Virus record (IMG/VR): IMGVR_UViG_3300024520_000007
Location: 1-47,534 of that record
Reading direction: 5' to 3' (one strand)
DNA: 47,534 bases
From: a virus
Within the stretch, counting starts at the first letter, position 1, and each line of letters begins with the position of its first letter. Position numbers and translations under genes: made by a program. Positions 2,467 through 29,802 of this stretch are shown here, in pieces. The notes under the pieces are model-generated. The model was not told the DNA's origin. It searched no databases and was given only the letters and a program-made list of their open reading frames with translations.

Positions 2467-5400
2467 ATGAATAATTATCGTTTAGAATTGTGGGATAGGG
2501 AACACCGTGAACGGTTGGCATTTCTGGATGCTGTGGATCAGGGTAGCGTCCAGATAACCGAAAAGCTGAACGGTCAGCATACCCTGACATTTCGGTTGGC
2601 TCAGGACGACCCAATAGCCATTTATAAAGAAGGTCAAATTGACCCCGCCCAACTTCCTACCTATCAAAGATTCTTGCAACCCCGACAGATTGTGCGGTTG
2701 GTGGATAACAGGGTAACGGAATGGCGGTCAACTGATTTCAATAGTTTCGGCTCCAATTACATTGACTTTTCCGCTCCTACCGATGTTAGCGATATAGCCG
2801 TAAACGACTATATCCATCTGGCTACCGTTTCTCCTACCAATCCATATATAACCAAAATAGAAAGCATTGATTCCGCTAACCGTAAACTGTATGTCAGCCG
2901 TGATCCTACCCGTTACATTGCTGACCAATATACAGGGGTGGTAGCTACCCGTAACAAGTTTGATTTCTTTAGGATCAACCGTATCAGGCAGACACGGGAC
3001 GATTCGGGGGTGATGTTTGTTAATATCGAATGCGAACACCATTCTTACGATATGCTTGACCGTCCGTTTCTGAAAGGAGCCAGAAGCGATTTGAGTTACA
3101 GTCAGGATCAGTATGGGGGAAGTGTTCAAGCGGTCACAGTCTCAGCCAGCACGGTAGTAAATGATGTTATCAGCAATTTCGATAAACTGTCCACCACCAT
3201 GCCAGCCGATGCACCTTGGCTCTCCAAAACGGATACCACCAGTTTCGGGGTAGGAACCATCGATTTCACTTCGGAACGGGAAATGACTTTCAACCGTGAT
3301 ACCTGTCTTGATGCCTTGCGTAAAATCCGACAGGCGTGGGAAGGGGATTTGAAGTTCAACTTGGACGGTACGGTAGATTTGCTATATATGCAGGGGCAAT
3401 TTAGTAACCTTCAAGTCGATTACGGTAAGAACCTCAATTCCGTGTCCAAGGAAACAGATATTTCGAGTATGTTCAACGTGGTTTATCCCGTAGGGGCATC
3501 CAGTGCATGGGAAGATAATTACTCTGGCATATATGGCACAGCAGGGTCAGTCACGGCATCTTTGGAACCGACGAAGGATGTTTTGACCTTGGCATCAGGG
3601 GATGCTAAAAAGTTCCGTTACGGTGACATTCTGGCTGTCTGGGATGGAGCCAAGCAGATCACTACCACAGGAGCAACCGATTCTACCATTACAGGTGATC
3701 TTGCTACAGCGGGATGGGTATCGGGAGAATTGGTGGGAACCAATATTCTTGTCACTTCTGGAAGCGGTACGGGACAAATGCGGCAAGTGGTTTCTAATAG
3801 CACCAATACCATCACGGTAGATAGGAAATTTGACATTACGCCCAGTGTCAGCGGCACGTTCTGGACAGCACGGCATATACACATAACCGATTTATTGGCA
3901 TTCGGAATCAAGAAAGCAACGGTCACAACTGCAACAGCTTCCACAGTGACTCAGGCTGACCACACTTTGACGGTAAACGAATATTCCTCTGGACAGATAA
4001 CTATTATTGAGGGGTTGGGTGTAGGGCAACGAAGGATGATTTCATCCAATTCCGCTACGGTATTCACTATCGCTCCTGATTGGGATACTCAGCCAGATAC
4101 TACCAGCATTATCGAATTCAAAGCTCCACATACCTACGGGGCAATAGCCACCAACGAACAGATCTCCGTTTCCCCGTTACCTGTACCTCCAGCCAATAAT
4201 TCGTATGTGGTCAGTCTTGATGCAGAGGAACCGTTACGGGTAGGTAAATCATATGATTTCCGTAGCCATGTTTCAGAATACAAAGTTCCCACCGTTTCTA
4301 CTGCATTGACTACTATTAGTATGCCAGTGGTGAACAATGTATCGGAAGCCAAGAAATTCTTGGATAACAAGGTGCATTCAATAGCGGTTTACGAAACCAT
4401 TTTGTCATCGTTGGGCATCCCATTACGCAAAAGCCTAGAGACAACAATCACATCCGTTTCCTATCAAACAGGCGCACCTTATGCGGGATATCTTATTTGT
4501 CCGTATAAACCGTTGACTTCCGTGCCAAGCGGTTACGGTACGACAGCCAGTTCACCAAGTGAATATTCCCGTGTGGAAGCCTTGAGCCTGTATGATTCGA
4601 CCTCGGTGACATCGTGGGGAGCCATTGCCAAGACCTACGCCCAGTTCGACCAGCATTCAGCGTTGATGCTTGGCGAGGACGCTAAACGCACGTTAGGATT
4701 GAACTCTTTTCCCAAGGCAAGATTTACGTTTCGTATTGGTGATCTGTACGAATTTGATTATCTCCAGTTTTCTCAGGATGAAGTCAAGGTAGGTGATCTG
4801 TTCCAATTCAGTGATACGACAGGGAATAGAGGGTTGACAGGCACAGGGCAAATTAGACCCCCTCACCTTGGTTACACGCAACAAATGCTTTATGATTCTA
4901 TCACCACCGATGCCAGTTCAACTTATTCTGTGATAGCGGTCAATTCAACTTATACTTCCAATTGGTTGACAGGGCAGTTTCACGGGTACATGGCTTATGT
5001 GGTTCCGTTGGATCTTTCGGGAACCGATGTTCTGCCTATCGTCACCAATACGGAAACGCTACTGATAACCCAAAAAATAGATAGCAGTTTGGGTGCGGGT
5101 GCAGGGTTGATGTCAATAGATTTCGGTATGAGGATCAACAGCAAAACATGGAACCCGTTCCAGCCCGATAATTTACAAATAGAGGTATCTCACGGCACTC
5201 CCATCAATTTCTATGATGATATTAATGCCATTATGAAGAAACAGAAAGAGGGTAGCGGGGTGCAACCCGAAACAGCCTTAGCCAGAACGCAACAGGCAAC
5301 GTGTAGTTTCTGGGATTTCAATAAACGGCAATGCGGTAGAACTCAATATCCTAACTGGTTTTGCCAATCGGAACAATCTAACCGTGACGGCAAGATGACA

Positions 5401-6049: not shown

Positions 6050-6253
6050 ATGGAAACCATCGAAAATGTCGAATTCAGTTACGGTGAATTGAAAGAATAT
6101 ATCCTGATTAGGGAAAAGGGTTGGTCAGGGGAAGATATCAACCTATTATTAACAGAAAGTGATTTCAAGGTTTTGAGGGAACGGGCTGAGAAGATGGCGC
6201 ACATTATTCCTGACAGCAACGGCGGTGGGTTCCTGTCACGGTGGTTCGCATGA
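6050..6253 (+). CDS. Hypothetical protein (67 aa)
   Basis: ORF track; ATGA overlap with the next gene. Confidence 0.5.
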   Translation: METIENVEFSYGELKEYILIREKGWSGEDINLLLTESDFKVLRERAEKMAHIIPDSNGGGFLSRWFA

Positions 6254-6612
6254 TTGCATTCCGATACAAAGCCATTCTACGCAGAATTGTGGACGGCGAT
6301 ACCCTGATTTGTGATGTGGACTTGGGGTTCAAAGTCTACACGACTCAAAGGGTACGATTATGGGGAATCAATACACCAGAAACCCGTACCCGCAACTTGG
6401 AGCAAAAGAAGAAGGGATTAGCGGCAAAGGAACGGCTGACAGAAATAATGGAATCGGTGGAAACCTTCTATTTGGAATCGCATGAGGTAGGCAAATATGG
6501 TAGATGTTTGGGATCGCTTTTCCTACAGGAAGATTTCAGTAAATCCATAAATGAACAGTTAGTGGAAGAAGGTCATGCCGTGGAGTACTTCGGGGGAAGG
6601 AGATACCGATAA
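6250..6612 (+). CDS. Staphylococcal (micrococcal) nuclease-like protein
   Basis: Motif VDGDTLICDVD...RVRLWGINTPE is typical of the SNase fold. ATG 6250 overlaps the upstream TGA (ATGA), so it is preferred over the GTG at 6241. Confidence 0.7.
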   Translation: MIAFRYKAILRRIVDGDTLICDVDLGFKVYTTQRVRLWGINTPETRTRNLEQKKKGLAAKERLTEIMESVETFYLESHEVGKYGRCLGSLFLQEDFSKSINEQLVEEGHAVEYFGGRRYR

Positions 6613-13974: not shown

Positions 13975-14042
13975 CGCAGAGCCACCCACCTCTCCGGGGG
14001 TGGGGTAATGCGACCGATTGGCGGTGGCAAGTCCGTAAGGAA
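13972..14042 (+). ncRNA. Twister-like double-pseudoknot RNA, copy E
   Basis: As copy D, but the loop-closing stem is GCGG/CCGU (a G-U pair). Confidence 0.55.
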
Positions 14043-14070
14043 AAACCAATATCGTATGGAGAGAATCAAA

Positions 14071-14559
14071 ATGCCAGAATTGTATACAACTCCGAGCGTG
14101 GCTGATGTAGCCATGCGTAATCACATGAGGGGTGATGACATGAAGTCTGATTGGCAGGGACAGGTCGATCAATCACACCCAAACGATTTGACTGGTCAAA
14201 TGAAGATACAACAGCCAGTTACAAATAACCAAAGGGGAGAATCAACGATGACATACAGCCAAGCTAAAGAACTGATAAACATGATGGGGCGTGACCACCT
14301 CGTTGAACTTCTCGGCTGGATGGAAGAAGATGCACTTGTTGCCGCACTGGATTTGGGGCTGGCATGGAACATCCATGACGATTTCCAATATGAGGGAGAA
14401 CACAGTAACGATGAGGAGTTTGTCCAAGAAATGTTGGACGGAACAGGTGACATCCCTCACGATTTACCAGCCTATATCCACATAGATTGGACTGCCACAG
14501 CCCGTGACATAATGATGGATTACAGCGAATCGGGGGGGCATTATTTCCGTAGTGTTTAG
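14071..14559 (+). CDS. ArdA-like antirestriction candidate, with a second in-frame start-associated sequence at 14248
   Basis: C-terminal half EEFVQEMLDGTGDIPHDLPAYIHIDWTATARDIMMDYSESGGHYFRSV resembles the ArdA C-terminal motif (from memory). The sequence is acidic. Confidence 0.5.
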   Translation: MPELYTTPSVADVAMRNHMRGDDMKSDWQGQVDQSHPNDLTGQMKIQQPVTNNQRGESTMTYSQAKELINMMGRDHLVELLGWMEEDALVAALDLGLAWNIHDDFQYEGEHSNDEEFVQEMLDGTGDIPHDLPAYIHIDWTATARDIMMDYSESGGHYFRSV

Positions 14560-18746: not shown

Positions 18747-19238
18747 ATGGCACAGGTAGAACTAACGTATCAGGAAATGGTGTTGGGTTGCACGGTGGGG
18801 CTTACCCGGCACACGGAGAGCGTAGCCAAAAGAAGGACACCTCACTTTCCTGAGAAGTTCCCAGACCAGATGTTGTTGTCTCATCAACTGGGAGCCTGTG
18901 CGGAACTGGCGTTCTGTAAACTGGTGGACAGGTTTTATTCTCCCACCGTAAACACCTTTAAGGCTCCTGATATTGGTGATGATATCGAAGTTAGGTGGAG
19001 CAATAACGGACGCTTGAAAGTTCGACCTGATGACGTAAATGTTTACTGTGTAGCCATGAGCGGCAACTTGCCACGATTTGTGTATCACGGCTGGATGTGG
19101 TCTGAGGATGCTAAACGGGATGAATGGAAAGCTGACCCAAACGGATGGGGGAAACCAGCTTATTTTGTGCCTAACGACCAGTTGCGGCGAGGAAAAATCA
19201 AGCGGGAAGGTAAACAGGTTGCCAGTGTTAAGGGATAA
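18747..19238 (+). CDS. Hypothetical protein, possibly with a PD-(D/E)xK nuclease fold
   Basis: GACAELAF ... PDIGDDIEVRW resembles an E...D...ExK/R arrangement; weak. Confidence 0.4.
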   Translation: MAQVELTYQEMVLGCTVGLTRHTESVAKRRTPHFPEKFPDQMLLSHQLGACAELAFCKLVDRFYSPTVNTFKAPDIGDDIEVRWSNNGRLKVRPDDVNVYCVAMSGNLPRFVYHGWMWSEDAKRDEWKADPNGWGKPAYFVPNDQLRRGKIKREGKQVASVKG

Positions 19239-19878
19239 GAACGGGGAAAGAAACGCACTTTCCAAACAAGAGGTGCATGAGAAATACGATTATGTGCCTA
19301 TTGAGAAAGCACGACCTCTGATTAGCAGATACGATTCACCCCGTAGCAAACGGGGTGACCCAGTTGGGCATCTGGCTCGGAGACATGATAGTTATGTGAC
19401 ACCTGTTCATGGAAAGACTTACTTGGTTCACAGGTTGGTATGGTTGTGGAAAGATAAGGCTACCTACACGTATGGGGAGGTGCCAAAAATGTTAGACCAT
19501 ATTAACCGTGACCATCACGATAACCGATATGAGAACTTGCGTCCTGTAGCTTCGAGCCACAACGGGGTGAATTCCAAATTATCAGATTATGAGAAAACGT
19601 CAATGTACAGGGGTGTTTGTATGAAAAAAGACCGGGGCAAATGGACGGCACAGTTAGGTGGCAAAACGATAGGTGAGTTTGATGACGAGGTGACGGCGGC
19701 ACTAGCGTATGACCGTGCCGCCTATCAAAAGTACGGGGAACTCAACGCTCTTAACTTCCCTGAGAACAAGCGCAATTATCTTGGGCTTGACCATCACGAA
19801 CAATTAGAGTTTAGCCTGTTTAAGAATTGCGATGTACAGCAAACCCTAGACCTGTCAGACGTTATTTTGATTCGATAG
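19225..19878 (+). CDS. HNH endonuclease with an AP2 DNA-binding domain (homing-endonuclease type)
   Basis: LDHINRDHHDNRYENLRPVASSHN (HNH) and YRGVCMKKDRGKWTAQLGGKTIGEFDDEVTAALAYDRAA (AP2). GTG 19225 is proposed as the start because it avoids a long overlap. Confidence 0.75.
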   Translation: MLRDKNGERNALSKQEVHEKYDYVPIEKARPLISRYDSPRSKRGDPVGHLARRHDSYVTPVHGKTYLVHRLVWLWKDKATYTYGEVPKMLDHINRDHHDNRYENLRPVASSHNGVNSKLSDYEKTSMYRGVCMKKDRGKWTAQLGGKTIGEFDDEVTAALAYDRAAYQKYGELNALNFPENKRNYLGLDHHEQLEFSLFKNCDVQQTLDLSDVILIR

Positions 19879-20579: not shown

Positions 20580-21206
20580 ATGGCAGATTTTGACTCGTGG
20601 GTTTCTATGGTACTTCAGCACGAAGGAGGATTCGTTAATTCAGCAGAAGATCGGGGAGGTATGACCTCCCGAGGGATAACAAGGGAAAATTGGTCTGAAT
20701 TTATTGGTAGAGAAGCTACCGAAGAAGATATGCGTAACCTCACGGAACAGCAAGCGGTGGATTTTTATCGTGACCTGTGGGAGAAAATGAACCTTGACAG
20801 ATACCCTCCGGCTTTGCATCTTCAATATGCCGATATGCAAGTTAATACGGGGCGAGGGGGAAGCGATATGATTCTTCAAATGGCTGTCAATACCCGTGCT
20901 AATCCTAATGAGCCAGAACGGTGGATCGATGTTGACGGTATTGCTGGGAGGGGAACGATATCCGCACTTGAAAATGCTAATGTAACTCCGTTTGAATATT
21001 TCAGTGAAAGCCTGATGTTCCATGCTAACAACGCTTTCGTTGGTTCAAAGTATGGATTCAAGTTGCGTGATTACCTGTCTAAAAAAGAAGCTAATCCTGA
21101 TGACCAGAATGCGTGGGGCAGAACCCGTACCTCTCAAAATGGGTTCATTAGAGGATGGCACCGTAGGGATCTGGAGACGTATTTGAAAGCTACGGAGGAT
21201 GATTAA
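20580..21206 (+). CDS. Endolysin, glycoside hydrolase family 108-like with a PG-binding C-terminal part
   Basis: VLQHEGGFVNSAEDRGGMTSRGIT matches the GH108 N-terminal signature (HEGG..N...D.GG.T..GIT). Strong RBS AAGGAGGtaaaaATG. Confidence 0.8.
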   Translation: MADFDSWVSMVLQHEGGFVNSAEDRGGMTSRGITRENWSEFIGREATEEDMRNLTEQQAVDFYRDLWEKMNLDRYPPALHLQYADMQVNTGRGGSDMILQMAVNTRANPNEPERWIDVDGIAGRGTISALENANVTPFEYFSESLMFHANNAFVGSKYGFKLRDYLSKKEANPDDQNAWGRTRTSQNGFIRGWHRRDLETYLKATEDD

Positions 21207-21744: not shown

Positions 21745-21916
21745 ATACGGAGCTTTCTATTTCACTCCTGACGGTGACTTTAGGCACTTCTATGCTGGAG
21801 CCGATTGTATGACAGAGTTTGTCACTATCCTTAAGAAATCTGATCCTCATTATTCTTTGATGAGGGTGATGGAATTCTACAGGGATGAAACCGAGAAAGG
21901 AACCGAAACCGAATAA
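21647..21916 (+). CDS. Hypothetical protein (TTG start) or the frameshifted continuation of the upstream ORF
   Basis: The protein-like sequence FKYGAFYFTPDGDFRHFYAGADCMTEFVTILKK lies in the +1 frame relative to 21484..21744. Confidence 0.35.
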   Translation: MTYNSAAEAGYGNPAESQGEGLDTETPKRKEFKYGAFYFTPDGDFRHFYAGADCMTEFVTILKKSDPHYSLMRVMEFYRDETEKGTETE

Positions 21917-22260
21917 TGAAAATGAAAGAATCTCAGTTACAGTCGGCTATCGAGGATATGCTGAAAATCTATGAGAAGGTTAAATCCCTGATCTATATCA
22001 AAAACAATTCGGGAGCTACCAAGGTAGGGGATTCGTTTATCAGGTTCGGTAAAGCGGGTTCCCCGGACTTCCTCGTATTTCTTAGAGGGGGCAAAACGCT
22101 ACACTTGGAAGTAAAGGTAGGTAAAAACAGGCAGACAGCCAACCAAAAAGCCTATCAGCAACAATGTGAACGATTGGGGCATATCTATCAAGTGGTGAAA
22201 TCAATTAAAGAGGTACAGGAACTATTGCATGAAGAAACAATCCTTCAGTCTGCTAGTTGA
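21916..22260 (+). CDS. VRR-NUC-type nuclease
   Basis: GSPDFLVFLRGGKTLHLEVKVGKNRQTANQKAY fits the PD...E-x-K core followed by a conserved Q. Confidence 0.65.
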   Translation: MKMKESQLQSAIEDMLKIYEKVKSLIYIKNNSGATKVGDSFIRFGKAGSPDFLVFLRGGKTLHLEVKVGKNRQTANQKAYQQQCERLGHIYQVVKSIKEVQELLHEETILQSAS

Positions 22261-22507: not shown

Positions 22508-22589
22508 TTGAAAAAGTGGACGTTTTTGCTGTGAACGCTTGAAAAAGTGTCACTTCTCATCTAGTTTTTGACAAGTTCGAAAAAGTATG
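22508..22589. promoter_or_regulatory. Three direct repeats TYGAAAAAGTR upstream of the TerS-like gene
   Basis: ttgaaaaagtg at 22508 and 22539, ttcgaaaaagta at 22576. Confidence 0.35.
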
Positions 22590-22603
22590 GTAACAAACGT
22601 GAC

Positions 22604-23077
22604 ATGAGCCAAGCGGAAGTTGGTCAACAAATAGACGGTGAAACTCCTTTAGCCTACGAATATTTCAAGGTTTACAGGGATACTAACCCTGACGAAAGAT
22701 CCCTTGAACGGCTCAGTGACCACGCTGTGTCGGGCAAAAAAAGAACCGCTACCGTTTTTAAACGCTGGTCATCAGATCATAATTGGCAACGTAGAGTCAG
22801 GGATTGGGATGTTGAAAGAAGCAAAGATACCTTACGAGCCGTTATCTTACAGCGCAACAAAGAAGTGGTGGAATTCATTAACCGAGACTTCGCCATCGCC
22901 AAAGTCGCACAAGGGCTGGCTCAGAAGAAATTAGTGGAATTGAACGGACAGGAGTCACTTGACGCTCTGGAGTACAGGCAAGTGATGATGGGCTATCGGG
23001 AAGCACGGGAATTCCTCAAGGAGCTTATCGGTATCTTTGAGGGGCAAACGGACATACTGAACAGGGTAGGAGTTTGA
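22604..23077 (+). CDS. Terminase small subunit-like protein
   Basis: Position at the head of the late operon; LAYEYFKVYRD...RSLERLS...TVFKRWSSDHNWQRRVRDWD resembles HTH-type TerS N-termini. The start is uncertain (TTG 22568 or ATG 22604). Confidence 0.4.
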   Translation: MSQAEVGQQIDGETPLAYEYFKVYRDTNPDERSLERLSDHAVSGKKRTATVFKRWSSDHNWQRRVRDWDVERSKDTLRAVILQRNKEVVEFINRDFAIAKVAQGLAQKKLVELNGQESLDALEYRQVMMGYREAREFLKELIGIFEGQTDILNRVGV

Positions 23078-24834
23078 TGGAAACCCAGCTACAAATTGAA
23101 TATGTGGATACAGAAGAACTGAAACCCTTTGTTGACAATCCAAGGGCGCATTCTGAACGGAATATTGGTGATATTGCTCGTTCCATTAAACGGTTCGGCT
23201 GGACTAATCCCATCATTGTTCGCCGGAGCGACAACATGATAGTCGCAGGGCATGGTAGGGTGGAAGCCGCACAGAATCAGGGGTTAGAGCAAGTGCCTGT
23301 TATCTATGTTGACATGAGTGAGAATGATGCCAAACTCTACAGCATTGCCGACAATAGGACAGCCGAAACCAGCGAATGGGATTTCACCACTCTGACCGAG
23401 TTGCTGAAAGAACTTAATGCTCTCCCAGATATAGACATCGATGACAGCGGGTTTGACTCTACAGAGATTGAGGAGCTTGACCAGTTGCTGGCAAATATTG
23501 ACACCGATATAAGCCAACATCTTCTACAGGGAACGGAAGAAGAAATCCCTCGACCCAAACTGGTTGACAAGTTTATCGTGCCGCCGTTCTCGGTTCTGGA
23601 CGCACGGGCTGGATACTGGCAAACACGGAAACGGGAATGGTTGAACTTGGGGATCAGTAGTGAGTTGGGACGGGGAGCGAACTTATTGCAATTCTCCGAT
23701 ACGGTACTGGAACCTGATGCTGAGAAACGGAAACAGCGGTCTATTACTGAAGGGCATTTGTTACAGGGCGGCATCTCCGGCAAAGACCCAAGTTTCTATG
23801 AACAGAAACGAGAGAAGGAAAAAGAGTTAGGTCGGGAACTTACCACCACCGAGTTTAGGGAAGACCATTACGAAGCAGGGTGGAAAAAGAGACAGAAGCA
23901 ATATGTGGACGGTGGGCTTCTAATGAAAGCCGATAACGGGAACGACCCAGCCTACTATTTTAAAAAGCAACAGGTGGAAGCTGATTTGGGACATGAAATC
24001 TCTACGGCTGAATTCCAAGAGAAATATTATACGGGATCGACCACCTACGCTTCTGGAACCTCTGTCTTTGATCCTGTCTTATGTGAACTGGCATACAGAT
24101 GGTTTTGTCCTGACGGCGGCGGCATCCTTGACCCGTTTGCTGGTGGGTCTATCAGGGGCGTGGTAGCCGAGATGCTGGGGTACAAATATTGCGGTATAGA
24201 ACTGAGGGCAGAACAGGTAGAGGAAAACAGGAGACAAGCCGAAGCCCTGAGCGTGGAGCCGGAGTGGATAGTGGAAGACAGTTCTAAAATCGAGGGGTTG
24301 GTCAAGTCTCAATTCGACCTTATATTTTCATGCCCACCGTATTACGACCTTGAAGTCTACAGCCAGCTAGAAGGGGAGTTGAGTGCCTTTAAAACCTACG
24401 GGGAGTTTCTGGAAGTCTATAGGAACATTGTCACTCAGACTGTCTCCTTCCTAAATGATAACCGATTCGCTTGTTTCGTTGTTGGAGACATCAGGGATCA
24501 GGAAGGGATATACAGGAATTTTGTCAGCGATACCATACAGGCGTTCACGGATGCTGGCATGAAATACTACAACGAAATGATCCTCGTTCAGCCTGTCGGT
24601 TCACTGGCAATCAGGATAAACAACCAGTTTCAAGGATACAGGAAAGTGGGGAAAGCCCACCAGAACGTTCTTGTTTTCTACAAGGGCAATGTCAAGGATA
24701 TCAAGCAAGAATTCCCTGAGTTGGCACTTGACTATGAGTTGTCTCAGTTTGATAAAAGCGACCCAGAGGAACCGAACAAAGACGAATATGGTGAGCCTTT
24801 GACTTTTGAGGGCATCAGTGGAGAGTTGCTGTGA
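23077..24834 (+). CDS. ParB-like N-terminal domain fused to an amino-type (N6A/N4C) DNA methyltransferase
   Basis: ParB/Srx motif NMIVAGHGRVEAA; SAM motif ILDPFAGGSIRG; catalytic motif FSCPPYYD (PPY with an unusual Cys). AGGAG RBS; tgATG overlap with the upstream stop. Confidence 0.85.
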   Translation: METQLQIEYVDTEELKPFVDNPRAHSERNIGDIARSIKRFGWTNPIIVRRSDNMIVAGHGRVEAAQNQGLEQVPVIYVDMSENDAKLYSIADNRTAETSEWDFTTLTELLKELNALPDIDIDDSGFDSTEIEELDQLLANIDTDISQHLLQGTEEEIPRPKLVDKFIVPPFSVLDARAGYWQTRKREWLNLGISSELGRGANLLQFSDTVLEPDAEKRKQRSITEGHLLQGGISGKDPSFYEQKREKEKELGRELTTTEFREDHYEAGWKKRQKQYVDGGLLMKADNGNDPAYYFKKQQVEADLGHEISTAEFQEKYYTGSTTYASGTSVFDPVLCELAYRWFCPDGGGILDPFAGGSIRGVVAEMLGYKYCGIELRAEQVEENRRQAEALSVEPEWIVEDSSKIEGLVKSQFDLIFSCPPYYDLEVYSQLEGELSAFKTYGEFLEVYRNIVTQTVSFLNDNRFACFVVGDIRDQEGIYRNFVSDTIQAFTDAGMKYYNEMILVQPVGSLAIRINNQFQGYRKVGKAHQNVLVFYKGNVKDIKQEFPELALDYELSQFDKSDPEEPNKDEYGEPLTFEGISGELL

Positions 24835-25973
24835 CAGCGCAAGCGGAGTGGCAACAGGGGTACGATATTGATTATCTGAAAGGCATATACCAGCCTTTCA
24901 AAGAGTTGCACAAACCTCTGGTGTATGGAGCTTTCGGATTGGTTAAGGAACGTGACATTGCTGTAGCCCTGACCAAAGAGCAATGCTGTTTTGACTCTAA
25001 ACGCACCACCTGTCTGATTTGGAAATGGCTTAAACGAGGATCGACCAAGACTGATTTCAAAGGGGAGCCGTTCAAATATGAACCTGACTCTTTGGTGATA
25101 ACGCATTTCGTCACTACCGATCCTGAGATTGGAAGCCAACTGATGGGAAAAGTTATGACCCAGTTTGAAGCTACAGGCAAACCCGTTTACGCTGAGGTTT
25201 TCGAGGAAGACATAACAGCAAGAGAGATTGTGCAGTTTTACGGGTTCGGCTGGCAACGGACAAAGGTTACAGCGGGGTCGGAAATAATGGGTCTTTACCG
25301 TTTGGGCCATCCTCACGGTGGAGAAGACAGCAGGGAAGCGTTCACTCTTGGGGCGGCTGACACCGAGTTGCTGGACGAATGCCAGCCTTTAACGGATGAT
25401 GAACTGGAAGCGGTCAGGGCAGAACTGGACAACTGTTCGCTTTATGCACAGCACTATTCCTCATACAACAAACGGAAATCTTGGACATCCTTTGCCTTGA
25501 GAGGATACAGCCGGGACGACCCAGAGTTTATTATCAAACCCTCGGAAATGAGTAAGAAGTGGAAACAGGGAAACGCCGAGATGCTGGACAATCCGGCTGA
25601 GTGGACGAATGTGGCTGAACAGTTTCCTACCTCGGTATCCATTGCTGAAAGATTCGGAACCCTTGACCGTGTTCGGTTTATGAAATTGGGCGCAGGGGGA
25701 GAGTTGAGCCGTCACGCAGATATTACCGACAGGGATGCGGGAGTACGAAAAGGAAAAGTGATGCGGTTGCATATCCCTATATATACGAATAATGACATCA
25801 CATTTTACGCTTGGGATTTGCGTGGCAGTCTTTTGACCATGAGTTTCGAGGTGGGCAACGTTTATTATCTGGATCAGAGGAAGCCGCACCGAGTGACAAA
25901 CAATTCCAAGGAAGATCGTGTGCATTTGGTTATTGATGTCGTTTCTAGTGGTGAGAGCCGGAGGGTTGCATGA
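24831..25973 (+). CDS. Two-domain enzyme: GNAT-like N-terminal half plus an aspartyl/asparaginyl beta-hydroxylase-like cupin
   Basis: C-terminal half LSRHADITD...MRLHIPIYTNN...VYYLDQRKPHRVTNNSKEDRVHLVIDV fits the AspH-family pattern. N-terminal half VTTDPEIGSQLMGKVMTQFEATGKPVYAEVFEEDITAREIVQFYGFG is GNAT-like (weak). GTGA overlap. Confidence 0.65.
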   Translation: MTAQAEWQQGYDIDYLKGIYQPFKELHKPLVYGAFGLVKERDIAVALTKEQCCFDSKRTTCLIWKWLKRGSTKTDFKGEPFKYEPDSLVITHFVTTDPEIGSQLMGKVMTQFEATGKPVYAEVFEEDITAREIVQFYGFGWQRTKVTAGSEIMGLYRLGHPHGGEDSREAFTLGAADTELLDECQPLTDDELEAVRAELDNCSLYAQHYSSYNKRKSWTSFALRGYSRDDPEFIIKPSEMSKKWKQGNAEMLDNPAEWTNVAEQFPTSVSIAERFGTLDRVRFMKLGAGGELSRHADITDRDAGVRKGKVMRLHIPIYTNNDITFYAWDLRGSLLTMSFEVGNVYYLDQRKPHRVTNNSKEDRVHLVIDVVSSGESRRVA

Positions 25974-26707
25974 CCATACCCAATGTTCGTAAATGGCTGG
26001 AGATCCCACCCGTTATTGAACGGCACGGAGAGATAGATGTCTTGCGTGACGATTTGATCGACGGTGGGTCAAAGGCACGGTTCCTTCCGTTCCTCATAAA
26101 CGGGGCCAAAGAAGTGGTGTTCGGTGGGCCTTTTTGCGGGGGTGCGCCGTACTCGTTAGCAGTCTTAGGTAGGGAAGCGGGAATCAAGGTGACGCTGTTC
26201 TATGCTAAAAGGAAAAACCATCACCGCCGACAGGTGGGATCATTGAAACATGGAGCAAAGATATACCAAGTGCCATACGGGTACATGACCAATGTGCAGT
26301 CCAAGGCACGGAGATATGCTGAAGACAATGACGCTTTGTTTCTTCCTCTGGGGTTCGATGTGCCGGAAGCGGAAGACCCGTTTGTGGAATTCATAGAATC
26401 TATCCGTAAGAAACAGGGCGATTATGATGAGGTCTGGTGTGCTGTCGGGTCGGGTATGCTGGCTCGTTGCCTGTCACGGGGGTTTCCAAATTCAAGCATA
26501 CAGGGAGTCTCGGTGGGGCTGAAAAGCAGACAGGACAAACAGGATTTCGGCGGCAATGTGACAATCCATGAAAGCGGTTATAAGTTCGCTCAGCCCTCGA
26601 AAGGTAGTAGTCCGTTTTCCAGTTGCGAAAACTATGACAAGAAAGCGTGGGAGCAATGCGTGACTAAAAGCAAGAACCGTGTGCTGTTCTGGAACGTGAT
26701 GGGCTGA
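25970..26707 (+). CDS. Short PLP-dependent fold-type II enzyme (ACC deaminase / D-cysteine desulfhydrase-like)
   Basis: VLRDDLIDGGSKARFLPFL parallels the RDDL..GGNK.RKLEFL lysine motif. ATGA overlap with the upstream gene. Confidence 0.55.
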   Translation: MTIPNVRKWLEIPPVIERHGEIDVLRDDLIDGGSKARFLPFLINGAKEVVFGGPFCGGAPYSLAVLGREAGIKVTLFYAKRKNHHRRQVGSLKHGAKIYQVPYGYMTNVQSKARRYAEDNDALFLPLGFDVPEAEDPFVEFIESIRKKQGDYDEVWCAVGSGMLARCLSRGFPNSSIQGVSVGLKSRQDKQDFGGNVTIHESGYKFAQPSKGSSPFSSCENYDKKAWEQCVTKSKNRVLFWNVMG

Positions 26708-26720
26708 GGGGGGAAAGGAA

Positions 26721-28064
26721 ATGTCGTCATTTTTTCAATACAGGTATCCTCAAGCTGTAGCATTGACTCCTTTGATGAAACCTTATTTCGATGCCTTGCC
26801 CAAACAACAACTATTCATGGATTCAGAGAAAGCAGAGAACCTGTACTCAGGTGCCGTCCGAGCGGGAAAGAGTCGAGCCTTGATGGAGAAGCTGTACCAG
26901 ACAGCCGTTGAATATCCGGGTATCCGGTGCGGCGTGTTCCGAAAGGTGCGGTCAACTCTGGCAGAAACCACGCTACGGACATTGCTGGTAGACGTTATTG
27001 GCTGGGGGTCGGTAGAGAACGAGGAATCCGGCATTGTCAAGACCTACCGTAAATCGGACATGAAACTGATATTTTATAATGGGAGTGAAATAATCTTCTT
27101 CGGTATGGATAAGGAAACCAAGATAGGGTCGTTGGAATTGGGAGCGGCATTCTTGGATGAGGTACACGAGTTTGAAGAAGGTGATTGGAACATGATACAA
27201 ACACGGCTGTCACAACCCCTTTTGGAGAAACCGCAAATGTGGTCGGCTTGCAATCCAGCCAGCCCCACGCATTGGCTGTACGAAAAGTTCTTTCGTTCTC
27301 CAACGGAAGAAACGTTCAGCGTGGCTACCAACTCCTATGAAAATCCTTATTTGGGTGACGAATATATCGCACGGCTTAACCGTATGTCCGGCATTATGAA
27401 ACGGCGTTTAGTCGACGGGGAATGGGTGGGGTATGCCGGAGTTATCTACAACTGTTTCGATCCTGATAAACACCTGATTGACGAACCTTTTGAGGGGGAA
27501 CATATTAACTTCCGCTGTCTGGATTTCGGTGGCTTGAATCCTTATGTATGCCAATGGTGGAGATATTATCCAGAAACCAAACGCATGGTGCTGTTCCGTG
27601 AAATCTATTTCTCCGACATCTCTATAGAGGATTTCTGTCGCATGATCCACGAACATCAGCCGAAAGAGGAACCCGTTAACTTTACTGTATCTGACCATGA
27701 TGCCAGTGACCGTATATTCCTCGCCAAGCATGGCATTTTAACTTTATCGGCTCTGAAGGATGTGCGGAAAGGCGTGCAAGATACATACGAGAAAATCGCT
27801 AATGATGAAATCTATTTCGTTAAGGACACGGTAGTTGAACCTGATTGGAAGCTGAAAGATGATAGCGGAGCCATCAAGCGTAAACGTCCTCAGAGTACCG
27901 TAGAGGAATTGTCAGGTTACGAATGGGCGACTTCCGGCGATACAGCCAAGGATCAGCCTGTCAAACGTGACGATCATGGAATGGATGCAATGCGGTACGC
28001 CGTTGAAGCGATCATACACGGGCAGAATAAGAAACCGACTTGGAGTTATCTCAGGGGGGTATGA
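26721..28064 (+). CDS. terL: Terminase large subunit
   Basis: Walker A GAVRAGKSRAL, Walker B AAFLDEV, C-terminal nuclease motif DDHGMDAMRYAV. Confidence 0.9.
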   Translation: MSSFFQYRYPQAVALTPLMKPYFDALPKQQLFMDSEKAENLYSGAVRAGKSRALMEKLYQTAVEYPGIRCGVFRKVRSTLAETTLRTLLVDVIGWGSVENEESGIVKTYRKSDMKLIFYNGSEIIFFGMDKETKIGSLELGAAFLDEVHEFEEGDWNMIQTRLSQPLLEKPQMWSACNPASPTHWLYEKFFRSPTEETFSVATNSYENPYLGDEYIARLNRMSGIMKRRLVDGEWVGYAGVIYNCFDPDKHLIDEPFEGEHINFRCLDFGGLNPYVCQWWRYYPETKRMVLFREIYFSDISIEDFCRMIHEHQPKEEPVNFTVSDHDASDRIFLAKHGILTLSALKDVRKGVQDTYEKIANDEIYFVKDTVVEPDWKLKDDSGAIKRKRPQSTVEELSGYEWATSGDTAKDQPVKRDDHGMDAMRYAVEAIIHGQNKKPTWSYLRGV

Positions 28065-28365: not shown

Positions 28366-29802
28366 ATGGCATACGAACAGATAGCAGATTATAACGATAT
28401 CTACGAGAAGTACAGCACCGATTGGGATTTCTTTGAGCAATCTTATGTGGGCGGCAGAAGGTACGTTACCAATAAGAACTTGTTTCGCCATTCACGGGAA
28501 AACCAAGATGATTTTAATACACGGATGAAACGCAGTCCTTTTATCAATTATTGCCGACCCATTATTGATATCTATACCAGCTTCATCTTCGGCATTGAAA
28601 CCAATATTGCCCGAAACACTGAGAACGAAAGTTACCGTGCCTTTATTGAAGACGCTGATTATCAGGGTCACAATATGCACACGTTCATGGAACAGGTAGC
28701 TACCTTTGCTATGGTCTATGGTCATGTAGGCGTGGTGGTGGATATGCCGCAATCGGAGATGGATATCATCTCGATGGCTGACTTGCAAGCTACCGATATT
28801 CGCCCTTACTGTACATGGTATGACGCTCCAAATATTACCAACTGGCGTATGGATAAATTCAACCAGCTTCTGTGGGTACGATTAAGGGAACTGGATTACG
28901 CTGAAGTCGATCCTTTTGTTGAACAGTCTTCCTCATACAATTATCAGTACCGTACATGGACACGGACAGAATGGTATTTGCATGACTCTGACGGCAACCT
29001 CAAGGAATCGGGTGAACATGGGTTAGGGGTTGTGCCTTTTATCAGTGTCCAGTTTAAAGAGAATCCTGTTGACGAATTTGTAGGGATGTCGAGGTTGACT
29101 GATATCGCACCCATCAACCGATTATTGACCAATGTGATCTCATATATAGAAGAATTCGTTTCCAAGCAAGCATTCCCGTTTCTGGCTACTCCTGATGATC
29201 CGATAGGTGCAGGGATACAGCAAGAGGAAGAACAGGTTATTTCATCTTCCAATGTATACCAGTTTCCAGCAGGGTCGCAACCTCCACAATACGTTTCACC
29301 TCCGACTGATCCCGCCACGTTCATGCGTGAGTTCGCTTCCCAATATCTGGTAAAGGAGATGTTGAGGTTGGCACATTTGGAGTTCCGTGAACTGGCAGAG
29401 CAAAGCGGGGTGGCGAAGCAATACGATTTCCATCAGTTGAATCAGGTGCTTGTACGGTTCAGCCGAACATTGGAAGCCACAGAAACCAAGATGGCACGAT
29501 TGTTTGATAGATGGATGAATACTGAAACGGATTACGAGGTGGATTACCCTGACGATTTCCAGACCAACCCTGTACAGATGGCAATTGAAAACGGGTTGGA
29601 GATTCGCAAACTGATGGGAGACAAGTCACCGACTTTCGTTAATGCTCATTTGAGAAAACTGATGGAACAATTGGAACCCAAACTGTCGTCAGAAATACAA
29701 CGTATTATAGATGCTGAGATGGATGAGTCCACGCAGACCGAATTGATAATGACCAACATCGATGAGACTGTCAACGGCAATGGCACCTTCATGGCAACCT
29801 GA
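28366..29802 (+). CDS. Portal protein
   Basis: 478 aa, located after terL and before the MuF gene; GGAG RBS. Confidence 0.75.
   Translation: MAYEQIADYNDIYEKYSTDWDFFEQSYVGGRRYVTNKNLFRHSRENQDDFNTRMKRSPFINYCRPIIDIYTSFIFGIETNIARNTENESYRAFIEDADYQGHNMHTFMEQVATFAMVYGHVGVVVDMPQSEMDIISMADLQATDIRPYCTWYDAPNITNWRMDKFNQLLWVRLRELDYAEVDPFVEQSSSYNYQYRTWTRTEWYLHDSDGNLKESGEHGLGVVPFISVQFKENPVDEFVGMSRLTDIAPINRLLTNVISYIEEFVSKQAFPFLATPDDPIGAGIQQEEEQVISSSNVYQFPAGSQPPQYVSPPTDPATFMREFASQYLVKEMLRLAHLEFRELAEQSGVAKQYDFHQLNQVLVRFSRTLEATETKMARLFDRWMNTETDYEVDYPDDFQTNPVQMAIENGLEIRKLMGDKSPTFVNAHLRKLMEQLEPKLSSEIQRIIDAEMDESTQTELIMTNIDETVNGNGTFMAT

What the first reader, a model, noticed from the sequence alone, without database searches (positions are those of the whole stretch)
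23077..26707. Three translationally coupled enzymes inserted between the TerS-like gene and TerL: a candidate DNA (or virion) modification module
The small and large terminase genes are normally adjacent. Here 3.6 kb separate them, and the genes are chained by overlapping stop and start codons (tgATG at 23075..23079, GTGA at 24831..24834, ATGA at 25970..25973). The last gene ends 13 nt before terL.

The three genes are:
1. A ParB-like domain fused to an amino-methyltransferase. Its catalytic tetrapeptide is CPPY rather than the usual D/N/S-PPY.
2. A fusion of a GNAT-like half to an AspH-type cupin, with the HxD...H pattern RHAD ... PHRV ... RVHLVIDV.
3. A short PLP fold-type II protein that keeps the GGxK lysine motif (GGSKARFL).

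Inference only: a methyltransferase, an acyltransferase-like domain, an oxygenase and a PLP enzyme, co-translated with the packaging genes, would suit a multistep base hypermodification made at the time of packaging. Phage Mu Mom is reported to be GNAT-related. I know of no described system with this composition.
Basis: partly seen in the sequence, partly recalled or inferred. Interest (0 to 1): 0.7.

Follow-up and report, generated by a model that had tools for sequence, protein, structure and literature searches.

The report
Conserved phage DNA hypermodification gene trio
Three overlapping genes lie between the terminase genes of a complete 47-kb phage genome: a ParB-tethered DNA-methyltransferase-like enzyme, an iron/2-oxoglutarate hydroxylase and a vitamin-B6 enzyme. 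They recur together, sometimes fused into one protein, in many uncultured phages, which points to an undescribed multi-step chemical modification of phage DNA.

Summary
ORF A (23077..24834), ORF B (24831..25973) and ORF C (25970..26707) exist, overlap exactly as described, and lie between a TerS-like gene and terL.

The domain calls hold:
- A is a ParB N-domain plus an amino-methyltransferase with a CPPY motif.
- B is a family-specific N-domain (weakly GNAT-like) plus an AspH/proline-hydroxylase-type Fe/2OG oxygenase with an invariant HxD...H...R.
- C is a compact D-cysteine-desulfhydrase/ACC-deaminase-like PLP fold-II protein with the Schiff-base lysine.

The trio is a real module. Of 33 dereplicated viral loci with enough flank, 31 have the methyltransferase next to B and 25 have C. 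Natural fusions carry all the domains in one polypeptide, some with C and B nested inside the methyltransferase domain. A B homologue in Mycobacterium phage LilMcDreamy sits beside an amino-acid:DNA transferase. In cultured phages the same methyltransferase family is followed by a PLP enzyme or, twice, by a SAM decarboxylase.

No Mom similarity was found. Terminase adjacency is common (25 of 41) but not universal, and it has a precedent.

Most likely this is a post-replicative DNA hypermodification pathway with a new enzyme composition. The chemistry is unresolved. No description was found in the literature searched.

The parts
22568..23077 (+). TerS-like gene. It is upstream context; its stop codon overlaps the ORF A start (TGATG).
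   Evidence: phrog_6299 'terminase small subunit', E 1.1e-13. No Pfam hit. Junction read.
23077..23526 (+). ORF A, ParB/Srx N-terminal domain (residues 1-150), with NPR (residues 21-23) and GHGR (58-61).
   Evidence: PF02195, 40.2 bits against a cut-off of 26.3. PDB ParB/Spo0J/Noc hits at E 3e-5. N, R, G and ADN positions are conserved in at least 80% of 57 homologues.
23527..24081 (+). ORF A linker region (residues 151-335). It holds the conserved FIVPPFSVLD...W..RKR.W motif and two copies of a ~30-aa repeat (23785-23874 and 23944-24033).
   Evidence: The motif is conserved in phiFL3A gp36, P2559S_66, Pam4_70, Vincenzo gp1 and the long fusions. The length of this region varies among homologues.
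24082..24834 (+). ORF A SAM-dependent amino-methyltransferase-fold domain in gamma-like order: motif I LDPFAGGS (24127-24150), then motif IV FSCPPYYDLE (24325-24354).
   Evidence: PF01555, 50.9 bits. phrog_498, E 1.7e-128. CPPY in 63 of 68 homologous domains. At least 5,324 protein clusters at E<=1e-10.
24831..25385 (+). ORF B N-terminal domain (residues 1-185). It is family-specific and has a GNAT-like secondary-structure order (two helices, several strands, helix, strand, helix, two strands). Invariant residues include W7, G33, F35, E40, D75, F76, E126 and Y156.
   Evidence: AlphaFold model with pLDDT 93.9. Faint GNAT Pfam hits in 2 of 20 members each for Acetyltransf_1 and Acetyltransf_18. 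No PDB sequence hit. 323 representatives, found only in B-like proteins or long fusions.
25386..25973 (+). ORF B C-terminal Fe(II)/2-oxoglutarate oxygenase domain of the AspH/proline-hydroxylase type, with H295-x-D297, H353 and R363.
   Evidence: PF05118, 49.3 bits. Foldseek hits: 4p7w E 9e-12, AspH 5apa E 1.5e-8, nucleoside-antibiotic hydroxylase 7v4f E 3e-8. H295, D297, H353 and R363 are invariant in 42 sequences.
25970..26707 (+). ORF C, a compact PLP fold-type II protein of the D-cysteine desulfhydrase/ACC deaminase branch. Key features: K35 in GGSK, the PFCGGAP loop, the GSGM loop and Y222.
   Evidence: Model pLDDT 93.8. Foldseek hits: 4d8u E 5e-11 with TM 0.76, 9jqf, 1j0a. K35 aligns with the GGNK lysine of E. 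coli DcyD. The GSG loop aligns with the DcyD ASGSAGT loop. Invariant residues are listed.
26721..28064 (+). terL (PBSX/Terminase_3 type). It is downstream context and starts 13 nt after ORF C.
   Evidence: TIGR01547 E 1.5e-32, PF04466 E 1e-16. Junction read.

Best explanation
The trio is one conserved, physically coupled enzyme system that chemically modifies phage DNA after replication, and it does more than simple methylation.

Shown by comparative evidence:
- ORF A's partners B and C are inherited with it.
- B and C are often fused to A, or even nested inside its catalytic domain.

Inferred:
- ORF A uses its ParB domain to engage DNA. Its SAM-binding, CPPY-type amino-alkyltransferase domain acts on an exocyclic amino group of a base (A-N6 or C-N4).
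- B and C are both enzyme types that work on alpha-amino-acid moieties. B is a beta-hydroxylase-type Fe/2OG oxygenase with a possibly acyl-transferring N-domain. C is a PLP enzyme of the elimination/ring-opening branch. They would process an amino-acid-like side chain that ends up on the base.
- My preferred reading is that the side chain comes from the methionine part of SAM (3-amino-3-carboxypropyl or aminopropyl) and is processed before or after transfer. In cultured phages the gene directly after this methyltransferase family is either a PLP enzyme or a SAM decarboxylase.
- A less specific version is also allowed: N-methylation first, then oxidation and PLP-dependent elaboration.

The product would protect the DNA from host nucleases. 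If it is cationic, it might also aid packaging.
For: 1. Co-occurrence. There are 80 IMG/VR loci with ORF B, giving 56 groups at 80% identity. Of the 33 groups with at least 2.5 kb on both sides, 31 have the methyltransferase, 25 have C, 25 have ParB and 23 have both C and the methyltransferase. The same trio appears beside a DNA polymerase (L004) and among UvsW/Mre11/Rad50-like genes with a divergent SPPY methyltransferase (L085 group).

2. Fusions.
- L070, P0343, P0331 and P0358 carry A, C and B domains in one polypeptide of about 1,200 aa, with C and B lying between motif I and CPPY. ParB_N itself is detected in L070 and P0343.
- P0354 and P0341 have B nested in the same way.
- P0329, P0338, P0333 and P0344 are end-to-end fusions.
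- P0258 is a C-B fusion.
- In Pam4_70 and ZS04 gp7, C is nested in the methyltransferase domain.

3. Catalytic residues are conserved: B has H295/D297/H353/R363, and C has K35, the GSG loop and Y222.

4. DNA context for B. The only full-length structural homologue in BFVD is LilMcDreamy gp4 (TM 0.82). It follows gp1 ParB, gp2 (weak Tet_JBP) and gp3 (ADDT amino-acid:DNA transferase, 47.3 bits).

5. Precedents. PLP enzymes and GNATs sculpt amino acids appended to phage DNA (PMC8989533). ParB activates a phage DNA dioxygenase, and such clusters co-occur with terminases (PMC13229309).

6. Partner genes in cultured phages. A PLP fold-II enzyme follows ParB-CPPY-MT in Mae-JY30, ZS04, R6L, Pam4 and Vincenzo. 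A bona fide AdoMet decarboxylase overlaps the methyltransferase gene in P2559S (70.3 bits) and ZRG1 (83.5 bits), phages of hosts from different phyla.

7. Minimal A+C and A+B modules both exist. Each partner must therefore find its substrate in what A makes or uses.
Against: - There are no chemical data. Neither DNA as the substrate of B and C, nor the group transferred by A, is shown.
- The CPPY methyltransferase family is about ten times larger than the B or C families (at least 5,324 clusters against 458 and 410). Five sampled stand-alone members sit among ordinary DNA methyltransferases with no PLP or decarboxylase partner, which favours plain methylation as the default activity.
- C lacks the Ser-Asn of the DcyD/ACCD active-site loop (CGG instead) and falls below Pfam's cut-off in the window protein.
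- B's N-domain lacks a clear acyl-CoA motif.
- Fold-type II PLP enzymes are not typical decarboxylases.
- Fusions in phages can also reflect 'polyvalent' co-delivery of independent activities (PMC5512222).
- The AdoMet decarboxylase link rests on two phages.
Confidence: 0.55

Rival explanations
1. ORF A is an ordinary orphan m6A or m4C DNA methyltransferase. B and C are independent auxiliary or anti-defence enzymes that act on host metabolites or signalling molecules. They are linked to A only by co-expression or co-delivery ('polyvalent protein' logic), not by a shared pathway.
For: - The methyltransferase family mostly occurs without B or C and among other methyltransferases.
- ParB and N6A methylases are hubs of polyvalent proteins (PMC5512222).
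- The closest structural relatives of both B and C act on free amino acids: proline hydroxylase, and DcyD/ACC deaminase.
Against: - B and C are almost never found away from a methyltransferase (31 of 33 loci).
- B's N-domain occurs only in this context among 1.84 billion representatives.
- C and B are nested inside the methyltransferase catalytic domain in several independent fusions. That is not how polyvalent beads-on-a-string proteins are built.
- The B homologue sits in a DNA hypermodification cluster.
Confidence: 0.2
2. This is cofactor housekeeping. C, and AdoMet decarboxylase in other phages, with B, act on SAM or S-adenosylhomocysteine only to relieve product inhibition or to deplete host SAM. 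A simply methylates.
For: - C is inserted next to the SAM-binding half of the methyltransferase domain.
- AdoMet decarboxylase's only known substrate is SAM (established knowledge).
- Phage SAM-degrading enzymes are a known anti-restriction strategy (PMC7877911, abstract only).
Against: - A SAM-destroying enzyme translationally coupled to a SAM-dependent enzyme is self-defeating unless the product is used.
- The idea gives no role to the Fe/2OG hydroxylase and its N-domain, nor to B's presence beside an amino-acid:DNA transferase that does not use SAM.
Confidence: 0.12
3. The target is not DNA. It is a protein (terminase, portal, capsid or a host factor) or an RNA. Relatives of the methyltransferase fold include the PrmC/PrmB glutamine methyltransferases, and AspH enzymes hydroxylate proteins.
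For: - Weak NCBIfam hits of ORF A to PrmC and the L3 Gln methyltransferase (E about 2e-3 to 5e-3).
- AspH family members hydroxylate proteins and lipids (established knowledge).
- The trio sits next to the packaging genes.
Against: - ORF A carries a ParB fusion and is full-length homologous to phage DNA methyltransferases (phrog_498).
- The module also occurs among replication and recombination genes.
- B is associated with a DNA transferase cluster.
Confidence: 0.05
4. ORF A mainly serves packaging, with the ParB domain acting as a nicking or pac-recognition factor as proposed for B. cereus BCE_0392. B and C are incidental passengers.
For: - BCE_0392 ParB-MTase nicks DNA, lies between terS and terL, and showed only weak m6A activity (PMC3592412, PMC3459991).
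- A terL gene lies within 6 kb downstream in 25 of 41 loci.
Against: - The module is not tied to terminase in 16 of 41 loci.
- The methyltransferase catalytic motifs are strictly conserved.
- The idea does not explain the B/C conservation and fusions.
- No Bacillus phage appears in the CPPY family, so BCE_0392 may belong to another ParB-methyltransferase family.
Confidence: 0.05

Closest known systems
Phage thymidine hypermodification clusters: 5-hmdU kinase, amino-acid:DNA transferase (aGPT-Pplase/AADT), and tailoring by PLP decarboxylase, radical SAM, FAD lyase or GNAT enzymes (PMC8989533, PMC5889632)
   Same: Both are post-replicative, multi-enzyme and combinatorial. Both include PLP and GNAT-type enzymes that act on an amino-acid moiety tethered to DNA. 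A B homologue lies next to an ADDT gene in LilMcDreamy.
   Different: This complete genome has no 5-hmdU source, kinase or AADT. The installing enzyme here is an amino-methyltransferase-fold protein. The PLP enzyme is fold-type II of the DcyD/ACCD branch, which is not a typical decarboxylase fold (my own knowledge). An AspH-type oxygenase is not part of the described pathways.
Phage 5mYOX (TET/JBP-like) pathways, including ParB-dependent T-dioxygenases (PMC13229309, PMC8256090)
   Same: Both combine a ParB-family protein with a Fe/2OG oxygenase in a DNA modification cluster. Such clusters are frequently near terminase genes (19% of contigs in that study). In the 5mC pathways, a methyltransferase acts first and an oxygenase follows.
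   Different: The oxygenase here is AspH/proline-hydroxylase type, not TET/JBP. ParB is fused to the methyltransferase. The methyltransferase is an amino-methyltransferase, not a C5 one. A PLP enzyme is present.
ParB-N6/N4 methyltransferase fusions of phages and prophages (PMC12704722; B. cereus BCE_0392, PMC3592412, PMC3459991)
   Same: They share the ParB_N + PF01555 architecture, enrichment in phages, and a position at or between the terminase genes. The TerS - ParB-MTase - second modification enzyme - TerL order is seen in the B. cereus prophage.
   Different: Those fusions are described as predicted or weak m6A methyltransferases. The B and C partners, the CPPY subfamily and the nested fusions are not described there. 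Whether BCE_0392 is a CPPY-family member could not be checked.
Wybutosine pathway: TYW2 (class-I methyltransferase-fold aminocarboxypropyl transferase) followed by TYW5 (Fe/2OG hydroxylase). This comparison rests on my own knowledge.
   Same: It is a model for the proposed logic. A methyltransferase-fold enzyme transfers the amino-acid part of SAM to a base, and an Fe/2OG oxygenase then hydroxylates that side chain.
   Different: It acts on tRNA, not DNA. TYW5 is a JmjC enzyme. No sequence relationship was tested or claimed. Transfer of acp by ORF A is a hypothesis only.
Phage Mu Mom (N6-carbamoylmethyladenine; GNAT-like fold)
   Same: It is a phage modification of an adenine exocyclic amine by a GNAT-fold protein.
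   Different: No detectable similarity between the B N-domain profile and Mom (hhalign probability 0.13%). Mom works without methyltransferase, PLP or Fe/2OG partners.

Membership tests
ParB/Srx N-terminal (ParB-CTPase fold) domain | Match to PF02195 above its curated cut-off. | tested here: met
   40.2 bits against 26.3, residues 7-93. PDB ParB/Spo0J/Noc hits.
ParB/Srx N-terminal (ParB-CTPase fold) domain | Conserved GxxR nucleotide-binding arginine motif, and NTP binding. | tested here: inconclusive
   GHGR is present in the window protein (residues 58-61). Across 57 homologues only the first G reaches 80% conservation. NTP binding cannot be tested here.
N6-adenine/N4-cytosine DNA amino-methyltransferases (PF01555) | Profile match, and SAM-binding motif I (FxGxG). 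| tested here: met
   50.9 bits against 26.7. LDPFAGGS at residues 351-358.
N6-adenine/N4-cytosine DNA amino-methyltransferases (PF01555) | Catalytic motif IV (D/N/S)PP(Y/F/W). | tested here: not met
   The motif is CPPY, in 63 of 68 family domains; 4 divergent members have SPPY. Cys is isosteric with Ser, so the chemistry may be retained, but the canonical residue is absent.
N6-adenine/N4-cytosine DNA amino-methyltransferases (PF01555) | Transfer of a methyl group from SAM to DNA. | not testable with these tools
   The only experimental data found concern BCE_0392 (weak m6A, PMC3459991), and its membership of the CPPY family is unknown.
Fe(II)/2-oxoglutarate oxygenases, AspH/Asp_Arg_Hydrox family (PF05118) | Double-stranded beta-helix fold, HxD/E...H iron triad, and a basic residue for the 2OG C5 carboxylate. 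| tested here: met
   49.3 bits against 22.6. Foldseek 4p7w E 9e-12 and AspH E 1.5e-8. H295, D297, H353 and R363 are invariant in 42 sequences.
GNAT acyltransferases | GNAT fold. | tested here: inconclusive
   The predicted secondary-structure order matches GNAT, but the fold search returned only C-domain hits. Pfam Acetyltransf_1 and Acetyltransf_18 were each hit by 2 of 20 homologues (best E 6e-4), and the window protein gave no hit.
GNAT acyltransferases | Acyl-CoA pyrophosphate-binding motif Q/R-x-x-G-x-G/A after strand 4. | tested here: not met
   At that place the consensus shows only one conserved glycine (AFAAxxxxxGxxLL).
PLP-dependent enzymes, fold-type II (PF00291), DcyD/ACC deaminase branch | Fold-type II structure. 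| tested here: met
   Foldseek hits: 4d8u E 5e-11 with TM 0.76, 1j0a, 1tzk, 9jqf. Pfam gives 30.8 bits, below the cut-off of 35, for the window protein, but fused domains of the same family (P0331, P0358) reach 38-41 bits.
PLP-dependent enzymes, fold-type II (PF00291), DcyD/ACC deaminase branch | Schiff-base lysine in the GGxK motif, and a glycine-rich phosphate loop. | tested here: met
   K35 is invariant and aligns with the lysine of GGNK in E. coli DcyD. VGSGM aligns with ASGSAGT of DcyD.
PLP-dependent enzymes, fold-type II (PF00291), DcyD/ACC deaminase branch | Ser-Asn-His active-site loop (cofactor O3' and substrate contacts). | tested here: not met
   The loop is replaced by an invariant C56-G57-G58-A59.
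Thymidine hypermodification pathway (5-hmdU based) | A 5-hmdU source (TET/JBP or dUMP hydroxymethylase), a 5-hmdU DNA kinase, and an aGPT-Pplase/AADT. | tested here: not met
   None was found among the ORFs of this complete 47.4-kb genome that were scanned with Pfam or PHROGs. A few ORFs of about 90-110 aa were not scanned.
Mom-type adenine modification | Homology to Mu Mom. | tested here: not met
   hhalign probability 0.13%.

The most novel reading that the evidence does not exclude
The CPPY-type ParB 'methyltransferases' are DNA aminocarboxypropyl/aminopropyl transferases. They would move the amino-acid arm of SAM (or of decarboxylated SAM) onto an exocyclic amine of adenine or cytosine in double-stranded DNA. 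The PLP enzyme (or AdoMet decarboxylase in other phages) and the hydroxylase/acyltransferase-like protein would then tailor that arm. This would be the first amino-acid or polyamine-like hypermodification installed on DNA directly from SAM. It would also be the first DNA-directed roles for an AspH-type oxygenase and a fold-type II PLP enzyme.
Probability: 0.25. Interest if true: 0.9.

Novelty: new variant of a known kind. Interest (0 to 1): 0.75.

Why it matters
Known phage DNA hypermodifications mostly decorate C5 of pyrimidines or replace guanine by 7-deazaguanines. Enzymatic elaboration of exocyclic amines beyond methylation is known essentially only from Mu Mom.

Here a gene set with clear catalytic signatures is conserved in many uncultured phages: at least 458 and 410 protein clusters for B and C. 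It is nearly absent from cellular genomes, with 1 locus in 185,579 species representatives. No described product was found. If it makes a new base, four consequences follow:
- New chemistry is added to DNA biology.
- Phage resistance to restriction and CRISPR nucleases would be affected.
- Sequencing signals in viromes would be affected.
- New enzymes become available for site-directed DNA functionalisation.

The question is directly testable, because cultured phages carry sub-modules:
- Methyltransferase plus PLP enzyme: Vincenzo and AlanGrant on M. smegmatis, Pam4, R6L and ZS04, Mae-JY30.
- Methyltransferase plus SAM decarboxylase: ZRG1 and P2559S.
- The B homologue: LilMcDreamy.

Tried and rejected
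1. Mom relationship. The B N-domain profile against Mu Mom gave hhalign probability 0.13%. Rejected.
2. Naming B's N-domain by sequence. There was no PDB sequence hit at E<=10 and no Pfam hit for the window protein. An exhaustive HMM search of 1.84 billion representatives found only B-like proteins and fusions. Foldseek on the full model returned only C-domain hits, and sub-domains could not be submitted.
3. 7-deazaguanine link. This was suggested by the 'queuine tRNA-ribosyltransferase' annotation of LilMcDreamy gp2. Pfam gave only a weak Tet_JBP signal and the PDB only a Tet-like hit at E 0.85. No DpdA or Que genes are in the window. Rejected.
4. Close cultured relatives. blastn of the region found none.
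5. Prophage hosts. Only one locus, in an Anaerolineaceae MAG, was found in GTDB representatives.
6. AdoMet decarboxylase in B-containing loci. None was found.
7. Bacterial-L21 similarity of ORF C. Judged spurious against the high-confidence fold-II model.
8. Promoter and terminator scan. Uninformative.
9. Literature. Seven relevant searches found no description of a methyltransferase + AspH + PLP module. One search was wasted on the ambiguous term 'Pam4'.
10. Whether BCE_0392 belongs to the CPPY family could not be determined.

Full report
**1. What is in the window**

The contig carries an exact 127-bp terminal direct repeat, so it is a complete circular assembly of about 47.4 kb.

On the + strand the genes run as follows:
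- An HNH-AP2 endonuclease (19078..19878).
- An endolysin-like gene (20580..21206).
- A VRR-NUC-like endonuclease (21916..22260).
- A TerS-like gene (22568..23077; phrog_6299, E 1e-13).
- ORF A (23077..24834).
- ORF B (24831..25973).
- ORF C (25970..26707).
- terL (26721..28064; TIGR01547, E 1.5e-32).
- The portal gene (28366..29802).

Each start has a Shine-Dalgarno-like stretch upstream. No promoter-like or terminator-like signal above chance interrupts the block.

Nothing else resembling a DNA-modification enzyme was found among the ORFs I scanned: no TET/JBP, no amino-acid:DNA transferase, no nucleobase kinase and no DpdA. A few ORFs of about 90-110 aa were not scanned.

**2. The three proteins**

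ORF A
- It has a ParB N-domain (PF02195, 40.2 bits).
- It has a SAM-dependent amino-methyltransferase domain (PF01555, 50.9 bits).
- It matches phrog_498 'DNA methyltransferase' over its whole length (E 1.7e-128).
- Motif I (LDPFAGGS) precedes motif IV (FSCPPYYDLE), which is a gamma-like order.
- Between the ParB and methyltransferase domains lie a conserved FIVPPFSVLD...RKR.W motif and two copies of a ~30-aa repeat.

ORF B
- It has no PHROG family.
- Its AlphaFold model is confident (pLDDT 93.9).
- The C-terminal half is an Fe(II)/2OG oxygenase. It is closest to L-proline cis-4-hydroxylase (4p7w, E 9e-12), human AspH, and a nucleoside-antibiotic hydroxylase (7v4f).
- H295, D297, H353 and R363 are invariant in 42 homologues.
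- The N-terminal 185 residues have a GNAT-like order of secondary structure, but the evidence is thin. Two GNAT Pfam families were each hit faintly by 2 of 20 homologues. There was no PDB sequence hit. There is no acyl-CoA motif. There is no similarity to Mu Mom (probability 0.13%).
- An exhaustive profile search of 1.84 billion representative proteins found this N-domain only in B-like proteins or in longer fusions (323 hits).

ORF C
- Its model is also confident (pLDDT 93.8).
- It is a fold-type II PLP protein. It is closest to D-cysteine desulfhydrase (4d8u, E 5e-11, TM 0.76), ACC deaminase homologues and C. jejuni CJ0600.
- K35 (in GGSK) aligns with the lysine of GGNK in E. coli DcyD. From established knowledge of the family, that lysine is the Schiff-base residue.
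- VGSGM aligns with the DcyD phosphate loop.
- The Ser-Asn-His loop of DcyD/ACCD is replaced by an invariant Cys-Gly-Gly-Ala.
- The protein is about 80 residues shorter than DcyD.

**3. The trio is a conserved module**

Family sizes
- ORF B has at least 458 homologous protein clusters. They are nearly all 366-430 aa, and many of the longer contigs that carry them are of phage-genome size.
- ORF C has at least 410 clusters, at 55-70% identity.

Gene neighbourhoods
- A scan of IMG/VR with the B profile returned 80 loci.
- I called ORFs in these loci and searched them with profiles of A (three parts), B, C and TerL.
- After dereplication at 80% identity there are 56 groups.
- Of the 33 groups with at least 2.5 kb on both sides of B, 31 carry the methyltransferase domain, 25 carry C, 25 carry the ParB domain, and 23 carry both C and the methyltransferase.
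- The usual order is A-B-C.
- The genomic background varies. A terL gene of several different families lies within 6 kb downstream in 25 of 41 groups.
- In L004 the module lies by a family-A DNA polymerase.
- In the L063/L081/L085 group, B and C lie among UvsW-, Mre11- and Rad50-like genes with a divergent SPPY methyltransferase.
- In six loci that lack C, a ~208-aa beta-class methyltransferase-like protein follows B instead.

Fusions
- L070, P0343, P0331 and P0358 (about 1,200 aa) carry the A-type N-terminal part and the methyltransferase motif I region, then C, then B, and only then the CPPY half of the methyltransferase domain. ParB_N itself is detected in L070 and P0343.
- P0354 and P0341 have B nested in the same way.
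- P0329, P0338, P0333 and P0344 are end-to-end fusions.
- P0258 is a C-B fusion.
- In the cultured phages Pam4 (gp70) and Erythrobacter ZS04 and R6L, a PLP domain is nested at the same point, between motif I-II and the strand before CPPY.

Nested insertion into a catalytic domain argues for one physical machine rather than a string of independent activities.

**4. Evidence that the substrate is DNA**

- The fusion to ParB and the homology of A to phage DNA methyltransferases point to DNA.
- Independent support comes from Mycobacterium phage LilMcDreamy. Its gp4 is the only full-length structural homologue of B in the viral structure library (TM 0.82, E 1.5e-35).
- It follows gp1 (ParB-like) and gp2. 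The record calls gp2 a queuine tRNA-ribosyltransferase, but I found only a weak Tet_JBP match (E 0.002).
- It also follows gp3, which matches Pfam ADDT 'amino acid:DNA transferase' at 47.3 bits.
- That is the make-up of a thymidine hypermodification cluster. ParB-dependent T-dioxygenases were recently demonstrated, and such clusters often neighbour terminases (PMC13229309). Amino acids appended to DNA are known to be sculpted by PLP enzymes and GNAT acetyltransferases (PMC8989533).
- B therefore appears in two different DNA-modification contexts. What they have in common would be an amino-acid-like group on a base.

**5. What the chemistry might be (inference)**

The methyltransferase domain family
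- It is large (at least 5,324 clusters) but rare among cultured phages (27 of 50,697 records).
- CPPY is its hallmark whether or not B and C are present.
- Five sampled stand-alone members lie among ordinary methyltransferases. Plain methylation is therefore the default expectation for ORF A.

Two observations pull the other way
- Both minimal modules exist: A+C (Pam4, ZS04, R6L, Mae-JY30, Vincenzo) and A+B (for example L014, L045, L050). A PLP enzyme has nothing to do with an N-methyl group.
- In two cultured phages of hosts from different phyla, Croceibacter phage P2559S and Stutzerimonas phage ZRG1, the gene that overlaps the end of the ParB-CPPY-methyltransferase gene is a bona fide AdoMet decarboxylase (70.3 and 83.5 bits). 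Outside cyanophages this enzyme is rare in the phage collection: 131 of the 139 records with a match are Synechococcus, Prochlorococcus or 'Cyanophage' records. From established knowledge, its product, decarboxylated SAM, is the aminopropyl donor of methyltransferase-fold aminopropyltransferases.
- The PLP enzyme occupies the same slot in Vincenzo (gp2, PALP 40.6 bits) and in the window.

The reading I prefer
- Every partner enzyme (PLP fold II, AdoMet decarboxylase, AspH-type hydroxylase, GNAT-like domain) is an enzyme of alpha-amino-acid chemistry.
- The only amino acid in ORF A's reaction is the methionine arm of SAM.
- A unifying hypothesis is therefore transfer of an amino(carboxy)propyl arm to an exocyclic amine, with tailoring before or after transfer. 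The TYW2/TYW5 steps of wybutosine synthesis are a model (my own knowledge).
- I give this specific reading about 25%.
- I give the broader claim, a multi-step DNA hypermodification beyond methylation, about 55%.

**6. Rivals**

- Plain methylation with unrelated passengers ('polyvalent' logic, PMC5512222): 0.2. The near-obligate association, the context-restricted N-domain and the nested fusions count against it.
- SAM/SAH housekeeping: 0.12. It gives no role to B.
- A protein or RNA target: 0.05.
- A packaging or nicking role like that proposed for B. cereus BCE_0392: 0.05. That prophage shows that TerS - ParB-MTase - another methyltransferase - TerL has a precedent (PMC3592412). BCE_0392 gave only weak m6A (PMC3459991). 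Its membership of the CPPY family is unknown.

**7. Novelty and verdict**

- ParB-methyltransferase fusions are catalogued in phages (PMC12704722).
- Post-replicative hypermodification clusters with ParB, oxygenases, PLP enzymes and GNATs are a known kind (PMC8989533, PMC13229309).
- I found no description of an amino-methyltransferase + AspH-type oxygenase + fold-II PLP module, nor of the AdoMet decarboxylase link. The library searched is not exhaustive.
- The B family is almost absent from cellular genomes, with 1 locus in 185,579 species representatives.
- I class the finding as a new variant of a known kind. It is real, widespread and experimentally tractable. Interest 0.75.

Noticed in passing
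window 1-127 and 47408-47534: An exact 127-bp direct repeat at the two ends of the contig. This is the signature of a circular assembly, so the window is a complete phage genome of about 47.4 kb. The tail genes wrap around the ends.
   Followed up: yes
window 23785-23874 and 23944-24033 (ORF A residues 237-266 and 290-319): Two copies of a ~30-aa repeat (DPxxYxxK..LGxExxTxEFxExxY) lie between the ParB and methyltransferase domains. This linker varies in length among homologues. It may be a DNA-binding or target-recognition element.
   Followed up: partly
window 23572-23601 (ORF A residues 166-175): A second PPF motif, FIVPPFSVLD followed by W..RKR.W, is conserved across the whole CPPY methyltransferase family, including stand-alone members. 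Its role is unknown. It could be a remnant of a beta-class motif IV.
   Followed up: partly
window 19078-19878 and 21916-22260: An HNH-AP2 endonuclease and a VRR-NUC-like endonuclease lie upstream of terS. The same neighbourhood (Vrr_nuc, HNH, TerS, ParB-MTase, second methyltransferase, TerL) is reported for a B. cereus prophage (PMC3592412).
   Followed up: partly
L003 (Mycobacterium phage LilMcDreamy, NC_051582) 855-2665: gp2 is annotated as queuine tRNA-ribosyltransferase but shows only a weak TET/JBP signal. gp3, annotated 'hypothetical', matches Pfam ADDT (amino acid:DNA transferase). With the gp1 ParB this looks like an unrecognised thymidine hypermodification cluster.
   Followed up: partly
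L097 (Stutzerimonas phage ZRG1, OQ504961) 2317-4162; L090 (Croceibacter phage P2559S) 3344-4985: In both phages a genuine AdoMet decarboxylase gene overlaps the 3' end of a ParB-CPPY-methyltransferase gene. In ZRG1 the pair lies just upstream of terL. This suggests that decarboxylated SAM is used by this enzyme family.
   Followed up: partly
L094 (Mycobacterium phage Vincenzo, NC_028934) 1-2275: gp1 is a ParB-CPPY-methyltransferase. gp2 ('carboxylate deaminase', PALP 40.6 bits) is a divergent ACC-deaminase-like PLP enzyme. Both lie directly upstream of terS and terL. This is an easily cultured system carrying the A+C sub-module.
   Followed up: partly
L007 9145-9774; also L012, L013, L021, L076, L078; L096 (HCTV-2 gp12) 3808-4449: A ~208-aa beta-class methyltransferase-like protein takes the place of ORF C after ORF B in six loci. 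In the L007 member SLPD stands where DPPY would be, and the FxGxG motif is at the C-terminus. HCTV-2 gp12, next to that virus's ParB-CPPY-methyltransferase, shows a similar partial N6_N4_Mtase match.
   Followed up: partly
window 25970-26260 (ORF C residues 1-95): There is weak but repeated sequence similarity to ribosomal protein bL21 (PDB profile search E 7e-4). Some JGI records name homologues 'ribosomal protein L21'. Given the confident fold-type II model, this is probably a spurious annotation.
   Followed up: partly
window 14008-14559 and 6241-6612: A weak ArdA (anti-restriction) match (E 8e-5, below the Pfam cut-off) and a staphylococcal-nuclease-like gene. SNase, DUF932 and PAPS-reductase genes also recur in other contigs that carry the module.
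   Followed up: no
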